DNA of 7,056 nt, taken from IMG/VR virus record IMGVR_UViG_2609459844_000004, positions 1-7,056 of that record; one strand, written 5' to 3'. Source of the stretch: a virus. Taxonomy: Duplodnaviria > Heunggongvirae > Uroviricota > Caudoviricetes. Of the stretch, positions 1 to 3,000 are shown piece by piece (position 1 is the stretch's first letter; each line of letters begins with the position of its first letter). Position numbers: made by a program.

Positions 1-3000
1 GAAATCCGTCTTCATATTGTTTGCGATGTCCCTGATGAACTTATTGATTTCACGTTTGAATGGAAAGGACTGAAGAAATTATGCGTGGCAGTCTCCTTTC
101 GGTCAATAATAGCAGAACAAAAGAAAGAGCCAGAAATGACGGTCAGATATTATATCAGTTCTGCTGATTTAACCGCAGAAAAGTTCGCCACAGCAATCCG
201 AAACCACTGGCACGTGGAGAATAAGCTGCACTGGCGTCTGGACGTGGTAATGAATGAAGACGACTGCAAAATAAGAAGAGGAAACGCCGCAGAATTATTT
301 TCAGGGATACGGCACATCGCTATTAATATTTTGACGAATGATAAGGTATTCAAGGCAGGGTTAAGACGTAAGATGCGAAAAGTGTGGGGTAGTGATCAAT
401 TCTGGGCGGAGTTCGTGCAGCCTGGTAGACCCTGCAAGCCTTGTGTGGCGCGGGGTATGGTGATTTAGTGTGATTCTGGGCGGATTTGTGAGAAATGACC
501 AAAAACGCTTTTTTTTGCGCTTTTTTCTGGGCGCTTTTGATCTGGTTCTGCTACAAACTTAACGGGTTTTAAATGCTTTTAAAAAAGTGTTTTATCCTTA
601 CCCGTTTTCCTCAATTTGTTCTCATCTGTTGTGTTCGGTTTTGTTGTGGTTATTGCTGATTAGCTAACAGCACACGCCCCGCCAAAACGAGGCGCTTATG
701 CTGATTTCTTGTTTACAGGCTTAGTTTCTTGCTCCGGTGTGACGGGAACGCGATCACCTGGTGTTCCAGCACAGAAAATGGCTTTGGCGCGGCGCAAAAT
801 CTCTTTGTCATTTTCCTCATCGCCAGCTAATGCCATGCAAACAGCGTCTTTAAGCGATTGCCTGATGTTCAGGCTTTGAATGGCCTTCCTTTGCTCCTCA
901 AGTTCGCTATCGGCTTGCTTAGTTTGCCTGGTGGGTTGCTGTAGGCGTTCCAAGATTCCTTTAATGCCCATATCGCATATTGCACTTATCAGTTGTTCCT
1001 TATCTTCTGTGGACGCTCTTTTCAATAACTCGTTAACTAGCTCGTTTGTAATATCGGGAGAAGGCTGCGCTGTTTGATTTGATAGAGAACCTCCTTTGGC
1101 GGTGGGTTCCTCACCATAAGCGAGCCAATTTAAGCTCACTTGTTCTTTATCTGAGATAAGACAAGCTATTTTAAAAGAAGGCTCTGTTCCTTTATGAATG
1201 TAGTTGTTTAAGGTTGAAGGGGGGATTCCCCAATCACTCGCAGCAGTTCTGACACTACGGTTACCTATCAGCTTTACTAAACGCTCTCTGAAACTTTCTT
1301 TTCCCTGGTCGACAAAAGAAAAAGCATCATCATTTCTAGTCATTTTTTCTTTCCTCTATAACTGATTGATTTTAATTACAAAAACCATATAAAGACCAAA
1401 ATCAAAAAGAAAATACAAAGAAAGAGCTATTTTTGCTTTACATGGGCTACATATGGATCAATACTTGTATCCGAAGGGATAACACGGCGGTGTTATCCGC
1501 ACGGATAACTTTTAAGGGTAACCTAATGATGGTTAGAAATGAAGTAATGAACAAAGACTGGCACCGCGAGTACATCGTTGCCGCTGTGCACACCAAAGGT
1601 TTTACATTGCGTGAACTTTCTGAACGCGCTGGTCTAAAAAAAGACTCTTTAAAAAATGCACTGTATCGCTCATGCCCTAAATATGAACGCATCATAGCCG
1701 ATGCTATTGGTGTGGAACCTGCGGAGATCTGGCCAAGCCGGTATGCCAGTAAGGCGGCGTAATGTTTTATTCAGCCAATGAGCTGGCCGGTCTTCCTGGT
1801 TTGCCCGGTACAGTTCAGGGGGTGCGCTGGACGCTCAATCGGATCACAGAGACGCACCCAGAATGGAAGCGCAAGCGCGAAGGCACCAAAGCATTCGAGT
1901 ATCACATCGACTGCCTGCCCGCTGAAGCGCAGAAAGTTTTACGTAAGCGCCTGACTCATCAGGTCCTGGAAGATGCACAACTGCCCGCCGTAGTTGAGCA
2001 GAAAGCAGTTAAAAACGTCGCCGTTCGCGATGAACTGGAGGTGATGGTCAAATGCCCGGAGCTGGCATTACGCGAAGTCCAGTCACTGACCGACAAGCAA
2101 AAGGCCATCGCTGATGCGCGGATAAGCGATTTTTTTGACGCTGTTACGTCCCCTTTAAAGACCATTAACAGCGTGATTAAAAAAATCCAGACTGTGCGTG
2201 CCACGCTGGTAAATACCCTGCTGACGTTCAAAAGTGATTCATTCTCCACAGTCGATAATGTTGTGTCACTGGCCAGCGAACCCGGAAAGTTTATCGGCGG
2301 GCTGGCAGAGGTGCTGGAAATCCACACGTCAGATGTCGGGCACGCGGTGCCGGTTCTGGCGCGTACTGATTCCGCCACCACGACCGGGCTGACCGGAGAA
2401 GACAGCGTCGCCAGTTCTGCGACCGTGATGACCTGCTGGAATGAGGTGATGGCAGATATGGATGAGCTGGTCGCGCTGCCGGTCGCACTGGTCAGCGGTG
2501 ATAAAACGCCGTCTGTGGCACTTCCGCCGGATGCGTCCGTGGAAGACGTGCAGGACGTGAAAGCGGCTTATGCGGTTCTGGCGGCCTCAGAGCTGGCCAG
2601 TGTGGCGACGGCAGTACTGTCCGATGAAGCCCAGTCAGAACAGCTTATACCGGCGGATATCGGGCGACTGGTCGGGGATGTGCGCACCCGCTTACAGGCA
2701 GCCATTACGCTGTTCCGTGAACGCTATGAAGGCGAACGCGAACGGATAACTGAAACCGCATCACCACTGGGGCTGATGTACCCGGAAATCATTCAGAGCA
2801 TGAAGAACGTGGCGGCATCCGTGCAGGATGTCGGCCTGCTGGTTCTGTCACGCCGCCCACCGCTGACGCAGAAACAGGTGCAGGCGGACAGCTGTCTGCT
2901 GTTGCTGGCGTGGCAGTGGTACGGCGATTACAGCCGTGCGGCAGAGCTGCAACGTCTGAACCCGCAGCTGCGTGACCCGAACAACATAACCGCCGGGATG

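What the first reader, a model, noticed from the sequence alone, without database searches (positions are those of the whole stretch)
1430..1525. Perfect 9-4-9 palindrome with a third half-site in the early leader: candidate Ner or repressor operator
GGATAACAC-GGCG-GTGTTATCC (1477-1498) plus GGATAAC (1503-1509) sits between a candidate early promoter and the ner Shine-Dalgarno. A perfect 9-bp inverted repeat is unlikely by chance in 180 bp and is placed where Ner-type proteins bind to throttle early transcription. The sequence does not resemble the Mu Ner or Mu repressor sites as I recall them, so the operator specificity of this element may be distinct.
Basis: seen in the sequence. Interest (0 to 1): 0.45.

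Follow-up and report, generated by a model that had tools for sequence, protein, structure and literature searches.

The report
Ner operator array of Mu-like prophage
The palindrome is real and is the centre of a conserved four-half-site binding array, most likely for the prophage's small Ner regulator, placed over the start of the early (transposase) transcript; it is an expected kind of phage switch element with a sequence not previously described.

Summary
In detail: GGATAACAC-GGCG-GTGTTATCC (1477-1498) plus GGATAAC (1503-1509). There is also a fourth half-site, GTATCC (1467-1472). Together they form two 16-bp palindromes, (G/T)TATCC-N4-GGATAA, at 1467-1482 and 1493-1508. The array begins 2 bp after the -10 of a sigma-70 promoter (TTTACA-17-AATACT) and ends 17 bp before the ner ATG.

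The same array occurs in 38 of 42 distinct upstream regions of Ner homologues whose helix-turn-helix carries D[ST]L[KR]. It occurs in 0 of 84 others, including Mu, D108 and chromosomal Nlp-like genes.

Natural mosaics keep the array and ner nearly identical while the repressor and the left half of the intergenic region are swapped. This links the array to ner rather than to the c repressor.

Spacing within a unit is invariant. The gap between units is 8 or 10 bp, depending on the Ner clade. RNA hairpin stability is not conserved.

Best reading: an autoregulatory Ner operator that blocks the early promoter, analogous in position to the Mu and D108 Ner sites but with a different sequence and layout. 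It is a new member of a known kind and of modest interest. Binding itself is untested.

The parts
696..1343 (-). c-type repressor gene (215 aa, CI-repressor HTH), transcribed divergently from ner
   Evidence: ORF. Pfam PF07022, E=2.6e-6. Annotated as a CDS in E2348/69.
1437..1465 (+). Candidate early promoter Pe: TTTACA (1437-1442), 17-bp spacer, AATACT (1460-1465). Inferred transcription start near 1472.
   Evidence: It is the only site matching at least 9 of 12 promoter positions in 1200-1700. A -35/17 bp/-10 pair ends 0-4 bp before unit A in every immunity type examined. The transcription start itself is inferred, not measured.
1467..1482 (.). Operator unit A: GTATCC-GAAG-GGATAA (half-sites H0 1467-1472 and H1 1477-1482/3). 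It overlaps the inferred transcription start.
   Evidence: 11/12 match to TTATCCNNNNGGATAA. Present at the same offset from ner in 38 of 42 relatives of this Ner class.
1477..1498 (.). It is the junction of units A and C (inner half-sites H1 and H2) and the dyad centre of the whole array.
   Evidence: The junction keeps its symmetry across relatives with some double changes. It is lost in the Yersinia phage vB_YpM_5 type.
1493..1508 (.). Operator unit C: TTATCC-GCAC-GGATAA (half-sites H2 1492/3-1498 and H3 1503-1509). It lies about +21 to +37 in the early leader and is the best-conserved unit.
   Evidence: 12/12 match. Unit C consensus is GTTATCCGCRCGGATAAC, with most positions 87-100% conserved over 31 distinct arrays.
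1516..1522 (+). Possible fifth, degenerate half-site GGGTAAC. It lies 13 bp after H3 and overlaps the ner Shine-Dalgarno (AAGGG).
   Evidence: One-mismatch hit. GGATAAA or GGATAGA occupies the same place in relatives. This could be explained by the ribosome-binding site alone, so it is uncertain.
1526..1762 (+). ner gene (78 aa, HTH_35/Ner family). Its helix-turn-helix carries KKDSLKNAL.
   Evidence: Pfam PF13693, E=9e-26. PDB hits to EnrR (7f9h, E=6e-17) and to Mu Ner (1neq, E=9e-13). Same CDS annotated in E2348/69.
1452..1454 (.). Recombination (mosaic) boundary seen in other E. coli prophages. To its right, the array, ner and the start of A stay at least 99% identical. To its left, the repressor and left intergenic half are replaced.
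   Evidence: Hits H29-H42 start at query positions 203-205, which are window 1452-1454. The sequences are and the identities.

Best explanation
The palindrome is the core of the operator for this prophage's Ner protein, the Cro-like early regulator of Mu-type transposable phages.

The operator is a 42-bp dyad-symmetric array (1467-1508) of four half-sites of consensus GGATAA(C)/(G)TTATCC. They are arranged as two 16-bp palindromes, TTATCC-N4-GGATAA, whose starts are 26 bp apart. Unit A overlaps the inferred start site of the early promoter Pe. Unit C lies about 20-37 nt into the leader.

Ner made from the early transcript would bind as pairs of monomers on each palindrome, perhaps oligomerising along the array. 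This would occlude RNA polymerase or block promoter escape at Pe. The effect would be to repress ner itself and throttle expression of the transposase operon.

What is shown here:
- the anatomy of the array;
- its position relative to a conserved promoter and to ner;
- its conservation across relatives;
- its linkage to the ner allele and to a Ner recognition-helix class;
- its uniqueness within a full-length prophage.

What is inferred:
- that Ner is the binder;
- the stoichiometry;
- the transcription start;
- the repressive outcome.
For: 1. Position. The array starts 2 bp after the -10 of the only promoter-like site and ends 17 bp before the ner ATG. The D108 and Mu Ner operators occupy the same slot upstream of their ner genes (that these are the experimentally defined sites is from my own knowledge of Tolias and DuBow 1986 and Kukolj et al. 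1989).

2. Conservation. A dual array (two 16-mers, each matching at least 9/12 and at least one at least 10/12, with starts 24-26 bp apart) is found in 38 of 42 distinct upstream regions of Ner homologues carrying D[ST]L[KR][NS][AV]L. These represent 26 distinct Ner cores down to about 50% identity, from E. coli, Yersinia phages, Edwardsiella and viral contigs. It is found in 0 of 84 regions upstream of other Ner/Nlp-like genes. The chance of a single 10/12 site in 126 nt is 0.0065. The counts are not phylogenetically independent.

3. Covarying specificity. The E. coli Ner variant with GQNNLYNAV in the same helix has (G/A)TATCA-N4-TGATAA and TTATCA in the same places at the same 26-bp pitch.

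4. Linkage. Among 29 locus pairs with Ner at least 95% identical but c repressor under 60% identical, the array-bearing right part is 94% identical and the left intergenic part 62% identical. The mosaic boundary is at window 1452-1454.

5. Geometry. The intra-unit spacer is 4 bp in all 31 distinct arrays. The inter-unit gap is 8 bp in the SLKSVLRTPC clade and 10 bp in the LKNAL clade.

6. Structural precedent. In the crystal of the Ner homologue EnrR (PDB 7f9h/7f9i), two monomers bind one short palindrome, ATATC-TATA-GATAT, which has the same inward C...G orientation as TATCC-N4-GGATA. EnrR Arg47, which reads the G, aligns with the Asp of the D[ST]LK motif (the mapping is mine).

7. Uniqueness. 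In the full 36-kb E2348/69 prophage, the only matches of at least 11/12 are these two.
Against: - No binding data exist for this Ner clade. I found no paper describing it.
- ner and the transposase gene A are always co-inherited with the array. Linkage therefore cannot separate Ner from the N-terminal DNA-binding domain of A.
- I found no reciprocal mosaics (same repressor, different Ner).
- The junction palindrome is more symmetric than two independent units require. The two-unit model does not explain this.
- The 24-26-bp pitch puts the two units on roughly opposite helix faces, which is unusual for cooperative dimers.
- Four D[ST]LK-class loci lack a clean array: L036, the two Sodalis loci and a deltaproteobacterial MAG.
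Confidence: 0.8

Rival explanations
1. The functional Ner site is the 9-4-9 (7-8-7) inner palindrome itself, a single inverted repeat as in Mu (12-6-12) and D108 (11-8-11). The outer half-sites would be auxiliary. Alternatively, the array is three adjacent Ner pair sites at a 12-13-bp pitch, with the reader's palindrome as the middle one.
For: - The Mu and D108 operators are single inverted repeats with 6-8-bp spacers.
- The junction keeps complementarity beyond the half-sites, with C-G to A-T double changes. Covariation is 0.137 against 0.061 in shuffles, 0 of 500 shuffles reaching it.
- In Sodalis the inner pair is a perfect 10-4-10 palindrome while the outer half-sites have decayed.
- A C-N4-G core recurs every 12-13 bp.
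- In L097 the central 16-mer matches the consensus 11/12.
Against: - The H1-H2 spacing varies between clades (6, 7 or 8 bp between 7-mers), while the intra-unit 4-bp spacer never does.
- The central palindrome is lost in the viable Yersinia phage vB_YpM_5 type (GATTATCC-GGCG-GTGTTATCC).
- In the window the central 16-mer matches the half-site consensus poorly.
- The half-site orientation is opposite to that in the EnrR-DNA crystal.
Confidence: 0.1
2. It acts as RNA. The palindrome would form a 5' stem-loop in the early transcript that stabilises the mRNA. Or the alternating half-sites would form a terminator/antiterminator pair: the H2:H3 hairpin plus a U-run, competing with the H1:H2 hairpin.
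For: - The window leader folds with the 9-bp stem at -22.1 kcal/mol, z = -3.9.
- The hairpin would start about 5 nt from the inferred 5' end.
- Most relatives have TTTTT directly after H3.
- Compensatory changes are seen in the junction.
Against: - H1:H2 hairpin energy ranges from -13.9 to -0.2 kcal/mol across the family. H2:H3 ranges from -7.1 to 0.
- The window has only four T's after H3 and no terminator call.
- The base of the H2:H3 stem is A/U-rich.
- H0 lies at or upstream of the inferred start, yet it is conserved and changes together with the others in the NNLYN class.
- There is no Rfam match.
- Any array of alternating half-sites yields such hairpins as a by-product.
Confidence: 0.05
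3. It is an operator for the divergent c repressor, equivalent to an O3-like site downstream of Pe.
For: - It lies in the c-ner intergenic region.
- Mu repressor has an operator (O3) on the ner side of Pe (my own knowledge).
- c is a CI-type HTH protein that would bind palindromes.
Against: - Loci with c proteins only about 48% identical in their first 90 residues, and with unrelated left intergenic halves, carry the identical array.
- Each immunity type has its own inverted repeats flanking the Pe -35. These are better candidates for c operators.
Confidence: 0.03
4. It binds something other than Ner or c. Candidates are the transposase N-terminal domain (an enhancer/IAS-like element) or a host protein such as DnaA (TTATCCGCA matches the DnaA box TTATCCACA at 8 of 9 positions).
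For: - A carries an HTH_Tnp_Mu_1 domain and is always linked to the array.
- One relative (L088) has a perfect TTATCCACA.
- The motif is conserved across Ner proteins only 50% identical.
Against: - The Mu enhancer lies at O1-O2, left of Pe, and is not a set of 16-bp palindromes (my own knowledge).
- The bases that define a DnaA box (CACA) fall in the spacer, which varies in unit A and is GCRC in unit C.
- The NNLYN-class array (TTATCA/TGATAA) breaks the DnaA consensus while keeping the architecture.
- The motif is absent upstream of Mu, D108 and other Ner genes in the same hosts.
Confidence: 0.02

Closest known systems
Bacteriophage D108 Ner operator (CCGTGAGCTAC-N8-GTAGCTCACGG)
   Same: - It is an inverted repeat in the early leader between Pe and ner, next to a gene for an HTH_35 Ner protein (sequence seen in L014).
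- The presumed role is the same: Ner represses early transcription.
- D108 Ner is a monomer that oligomerises on a long operator (my own knowledge; the 61-bp operator is cited in PMC10434027 ref 21).
   Different: - There is no sequence similarity.
- D108 has one 11-8-11 repeat. Here there are four 6-7-bp half-sites forming two 16-bp palindromes.
- The Ner proteins are about 50% identical and differ in the recognition helix (SSSTLKNAL against KKDSLKNAL).
Bacteriophage Mu Ner operator (two 12-bp ANPyTAPuCTAAGT copies, inverted, 6 bp apart)
   Same: Same location and the same gene neighbourhood, c - Pe - ner - A (L015). The regulator family is the same (PDB 1neq hit).
   Different: - The sequence and the half-site length differ.
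- In Mu, Ner also represses the repressor promoter (my own knowledge). Here the only leftward promoter-like site lies about 95 bp from the array, so direct control of c is doubtful.
EnrR (Edwardsiella Ner homologue) bound to palindromic DNA, PDB 7f9h/7f9i
   Same: - It is the closest solved homologue (E=6e-17).
- Two monomers sit on one short palindrome with the half-site orientation TATC...GATA and a 4-bp centre between the C and the G, as in TATCC-N4-GGATA.
   Different: - EnrR is a nucleoid-associated, AT-rich-DNA binder that counteracts H-NS. It is not a phage switch protein.
- Its consensus is AATAAATNATTTATT.
- It uses an N-terminal extension in the minor groove.
Lambdoid Cro/OR-type operators
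   Same: A small HTH regulator, made from the lytic transcript, binds tandem palindromic sites at its own promoter to turn early transcription down.
   Different: - The protein family is unrelated and the sites are 17 bp.
- In lambda the same operators are shared by CI and Cro. Here the repressor's candidate sites and the Ner array appear to be physically separate modules that recombine independently.

Membership tests
Ner (HTH_35) operator of Mu-type transposable phages | Lies in the early leader, between the early promoter and ner, in a c - Pe - ner - A arrangement | tested here: met
   The promoter is. The array begins 2 bp after the -10 and ends 17 bp before the ner ATG.
Ner (HTH_35) operator of Mu-type transposable phages | Dyad-symmetric repeats suited to an HTH protein, conserved among phages with related Ner and changing with the Ner type | tested here: met
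   38 of 42 against 0 of 84 upstream regions. The variant half-site TGATAA/TTATCA accompanies the NNLYN helix. The array is linked to the ner allele across mosaics.
Ner (HTH_35) operator of Mu-type transposable phages | Sequence match to a characterised Ner site (Mu ANPyTAPuCTAAGT or D108 CCGTGAGCTAC) | tested here: not met
   There is no resemblance when the window array is compared with L014 and L015. This is expected for a different specificity class. It excludes identity with the Mu or D108 operators, not the kind of element.
Ner (HTH_35) operator of Mu-type transposable phages | Specific binding by Ner and Ner-dependent repression of Pe | not testable with these tools
   This needs EMSA or footprinting and reporter assays.
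Mu-type c repressor operator (O1-O3) | Operator sequence co-varies with the repressor (immunity) type | tested here: not met
   The array is unchanged with c proteins about 48% identical (N-terminal 90 residues) and unrelated left intergenic DNA.
Intrinsic terminator / attenuator | Stable G+C-rich hairpin followed directly by a U-run, conserved among relatives | tested here: not met
   There is no terminator call in the window. The H2:H3 stem is -7.1 kcal/mol at best and ranges to 0 in relatives. The U-run is absent in L025 and L088.
DnaA box | TTATNCACA, conserved at the CACA positions | tested here: not met
   There is one 8/9 match (TTATCCGCA). The CACA positions fall in the spacer, which is variable or GCRC.
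Known RNA families (Rfam 15) | Covariance-model match | tested here: not met
   The only hit is a chance-level one elsewhere in the region (E=0.86, 1312-1337).

The most novel reading that the evidence does not exclude
The array works at two levels. As DNA it nucleates a Ner oligomer of three adjacent pair-sites at a 12-13-bp pitch. As RNA its alternating half-sites form mutually exclusive hairpins in the early leader: H1:H2, a 5' stabiliser or antiterminator, against H2:H3 plus a U-run, a weak terminator. One sequence would then set both initiation and elongation or stability of the transposase transcript. This would also explain the extra symmetry and compensatory changes in the junction.
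Probability: 0.06. Interest if true: 0.55.

Novelty: new member of a known kind. Interest (0 to 1): 0.3.

Why it matters
**Consensus.** The result gives a testable operator consensus, TTATCC-N4-GGATAA in two copies 24-26 bp apart, for a widespread but unstudied clade of Ner regulators in Mu-like prophages. Hosts include E. coli (among them EPEC E2348/69), Yersinia phages and Edwardsiella.

**Specificity.** It suggests a link between the recognition helix and the half-site: D[ST]LK goes with GGATAA, and NNLY with TGATAA.

**Modularity.** It shows that in these phages the Ner operator and the repressor's operators are separate modules, which recombine at a point inside the early promoter.

**Uses.** This helps in annotating immunity regions, predicting cross-regulation between co-resident Mu-like prophages, and designing reporter or EMSA experiments. 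It does not change the accepted picture of how Mu-type switches work.

Tried and rejected
- **Chance.** Rejected. The palindrome alone has p of about 0.015 in the intergenic region, and the array is conserved in dozens of diverged relatives.
- **c repressor operator.** Rejected by the natural mosaics.
- **Conserved RNA structure or terminator.** Hairpin energies are not conserved, there is no terminator call and no Rfam hit.
- **DnaA box.** Only a partial match, and the defining positions are not conserved.
- **LacI-like site.** CGGATAAC is shared with lacO. I considered this from memory and dropped it as coincidence; the rest of lacO is absent.
- **Leftward (Pc) promoter in or right of the array.** I looked for one, to see whether Ner could also control c as in Mu. 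None was found. The only weak candidate is at 1398-1369.
- **Reciprocal mosaics (same c, different Ner).** None in the data.
- **Literature.** Searches for a description of this operator or of Ner sites in Mu-like prophages found nothing specific. One search and one paper look-up failed on a short term.
- **Genome-collection scan with an alignment.** The first attempt failed for lack of a conserved block. I repeated it with the single protein.
- **Global correlation of part identities.** This was blurred by a high alignment baseline. I relied on the discordant pairs instead.
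Full report
**Context.** The window is the left end of a Mu-like prophage of E. coli.
- A CI-type repressor gene lies at 696-1343 on the minus strand.
- A 78-aa Ner (HTH_35) gene lies at 1526-1762.
- The start of a Mu-type transposase follows at 1762.
- The same region at 98.8% identity is annotated in EPEC E2348/69, where a complete prophage of about 36 kb is inserted in eutC.
- About 50 of 5426 complete E. coli genomes carry it.
- In the window the prophage is a remnant. The transposase N-terminus is fused in frame to a tail gene, and about 27 kb is missing.

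**The observation.**
- GGATAACAC-GGCG-GTGTTATCC is at 1477-1498, and GGATAAC recurs at 1503-1509, exactly as reported.
- It is the only perfect inverted repeat in the window with arms of at least 9 nt and a short loop. Markov surrogates of the 182-nt intergenic region contain one in 1.5% of trials.
- The repeat finder shows more. (G)TATCC at 1467-1472 is a fourth half-site.
- The region is a direct repeat of TATCCG-A-GGATAAC with starts 26 bp apart. It is also an 18-nt, 83% complementary palindrome overall.
- The array is therefore H0(-) 1467-1472, H1(+) 1477-1483, H2(-) 1492-1498 and H3(+) 1503-1509.
- This amounts to two 16-bp palindromes: unit A at 1467-1482 (11/12 to TTATCCNNNNGGATAA) and unit C at 1493-1508 (12/12).
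- The only sigma-70-like site is TTTACA(1437)-17-AATACT(1465). Unit A therefore begins 2 bp after the -10 and covers the inferred transcription start near 1472. Unit C ends 17 bp before the ner ATG.

**Relatives.** I collected ner loci from E. coli genomes, from sequenced phages, from viral contigs and from one genome per species. This gave 126 distinct upstream regions.
- Ner proteins whose helix-turn-helix reads D[ST]L[KR][NS][AV]L include 26 distinct protein cores, some only about 50% identical to the window protein. In this class 38 of 42 upstream regions carry the dual array at a fixed distance from ner.
- None of the 84 other regions does. These include Mu, D108 and the chromosomal Nlp/SfsB-like genes of Enterobacterales.
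- A single 10/12 site is expected by chance in 0.65% of such regions. The counts are not phylogenetically independent, but the contrast is stark.
- Over 31 distinct arrays the half-sites are the conserved columns. Unit C has the consensus GTTATCCGCRCGGATAAC.
- The spacer within each unit is always 4 bp.
- The gap between units is 8 bp in the SLKSVLRTPC clade, which includes Yersinia phage Tongde, and 10 bp in the LKNAL clade, which includes the window.
- In every immunity type a -35/17 bp/-10 promoter ends 0-4 bp before unit A.
- An E. coli Ner with a different helix (GQNNLYNAV) has (G/A)TATCA-N4-TGATAA and TTATCA at the same positions and pitch. Three half-sites have changed in the same way.

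**Which protein binds.** Natural mosaics answer part of this.
- Many E. coli prophages match the window at 99-100% identity only from position 1452-1454 rightwards. To the left they have a different repressor and a different left intergenic half.
- For L002, L003 and L017 the repressor N-terminus is about 48% identical to the window's. The left part is 50-64% identical, the array-bearing right part 98%, and Ner 100%.
- Over all locus pairs with Ner at least 95% and c under 60% identical (n=29), the right part averages 94% identity and the left part 62%. L086 and L087 give another example.
- The left halves carry their own type-specific inverted repeats flanking the Pe -35. These are the natural candidates for repressor operators.
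- The array therefore belongs to the ner module, not to c.
- Linkage cannot separate Ner from the adjacent transposase. However, the position matches the D108 operator (a perfect 11-8-11 repeat about 24 bp before ner in L014) and the Mu site (12-6-12 in L015), both visible. That these are the characterised Ner sites is from my own knowledge of the classical literature.
- In the complete E2348/69 prophage the only matches of at least 11/12 are these two.

**Unit definition.**
- First, only the intra-unit spacing is invariant across clades.
- Second, in the crystal structure of the closest solved homologue, EnrR, two monomers sit on one short palindrome, ATATC-TATA-GATAT, which has the same inward C-N4-G orientation. 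The residue that reads that G (EnrR Arg47) aligns with the Asp of the D[ST]LK motif. The base-contacting Arg55 aligns with a conserved Arg in this Ner (the mapping is my inference).

Against a purely two-unit picture, the junction keeps complementarity beyond the half-sites and shows C-G to A-T double changes. The intra-unit pairs show conservation without covariation. A third, central Ner site, or the dyad symmetry of a higher-order complex, would explain this. I leave it open.

**RNA alternatives.**
- The window leader folds into the 9-bp hairpin at -22.1 kcal/mol for the 74-nt leader, z = -3.9.
- H2:H3 followed by a T-run looks terminator-like in many relatives.
- However, hairpin energies range from -13.9 to -0.2 kcal/mol for H1:H2 and from -7.1 to 0 for H2:H3 across the family.
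- The central palindrome is absent in the viable Yersinia phage vB_YpM_5 type. There it is replaced by three direct TTATCCG repeats.
- The window has no terminator call, and Rfam has no match.
- Alternating half-sites generate such hairpins automatically.

**Other rivals.** The match to a DnaA box (TTATCCGCA, 8/9) is not conserved at the defining positions.

**Mechanism.** Ner is made from Pe. It binds the array that overlaps the transcription start and the first 35-40 nt of the leader, and it blocks initiation or escape. This gives negative autoregulation and limits transposase expression, as in Mu and D108. The only leftward promoter-like site, TGGTCT-18-TAAAAT at 1398-1369, lies about 95 bp from the array. 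Direct Ner control of the repressor gene, as known for Mu, is therefore doubtful here. Binding, stoichiometry, the start site and the regulatory outcome are all inferred.

**Verdict.** This is a real, well-conserved regulatory element of an expected kind. It is a previously undescribed specificity class of Ner operator with a two-palindrome layout: a new member of a known kind. Interest is modest, chiefly for phage-switch specialists and for annotation.

Noticed in passing
window 1762-3024 (junction between about 2124 and 2632): The prophage is a deletion remnant. The transposase N-terminus (HTH_Tnp_Mu_1) runs in frame into the C-terminal part of the DNA-circularization/tail protein. About 27 kb of early, head and tail genes present in E2348/69 is missing. 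c, Pe, the array and ner remain intact.
   Followed up: partly
window 85-468, and 470 onward: A C-terminal fragment of an IS4-family DDE transposase abuts the prophage left end. Window 470 corresponds to about base 78 of the E2348/69 prophage, so the extreme left end (attL) appears to be replaced or lost.
   Followed up: partly
window 1455-1458 (GATC in TGGATCAATACT): A Dam site lies directly upstream of the Pe -10 and is kept in most relatives of the LKNAL Ner clade. It could make early transcription sensitive to methylation state, as in IS10.
   Followed up: no
window 1385-1456; relatives L016, L072, L089: Each immunity type has its own 10-13-bp inverted repeats flanking or overlapping the Pe -35. 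Examples are CTTTCTTTTC-N10-GAAAAGAAAG and ACCAAAAATACC-N7-GGTATTTTTGGT. In the window they are AAATCAAAAA/TTTTTGCTTT and CCATATAAAGACCA/TGGGCTACATATGG. These are likely c-repressor operators. AAAGAAAG/CTTTCTTT motifs recur in several types and recall the Mu repressor consensus.
   Followed up: partly
window 1452-1454: There is a recombination hotspot inside the Pe spacer. Many E. coli prophages switch from an unrelated repressor module to a ner-A module at least 99% identical exactly here. The early promoter is therefore assembled from two independently assorting halves.
   Followed up: partly
window 1369-1398, minus strand: This is the only leftward promoter-like site: TGGTCT-18-TAAAAT, 8/12. 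It is a candidate repressor promoter, back to back with Pe and about 95 bp from the Ner array.
   Followed up: no
window 1509-1522; relatives in L013, L072 and others: AACTTTTTAGG(G/A)TAA after unit C is conserved across clades. It gives a U-run after the H2:H3 hairpin. It also gives a GGGTAAC/GGATAAA half-site-like element 13 bp after H3 that overlaps the ner ribosome-binding site.
   Followed up: partly
L004-L007, L010 (Yersinia phage vB_YpM_5), L097: In this Ner subgroup the array reads as three direct TTATCCG repeats at a 13-bp pitch plus one inverted AGATAAC. In L097 the central 16-mer TTATCCGGCGGGATTA matches the consensus 11/12. This hints at a third Ner site between the two main units.
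   Followed up: partly
L011, L183 (Klebsiella phage type, Ner helix TPTALNNAL): CGGATAA-N16-TTATCCG (CGGATGC...CATCCG in L183) lies about 100 nt upstream of ner. It has a similar half-site in a different arrangement, possibly another operator layout in the family.
   Followed up: no
window 5230-7056: A 608-aa ORF has a prophage tail-fibre N-terminal domain followed by a long, unassigned C-terminal region. Its listed end coincides with the end of the window.
   Followed up: no
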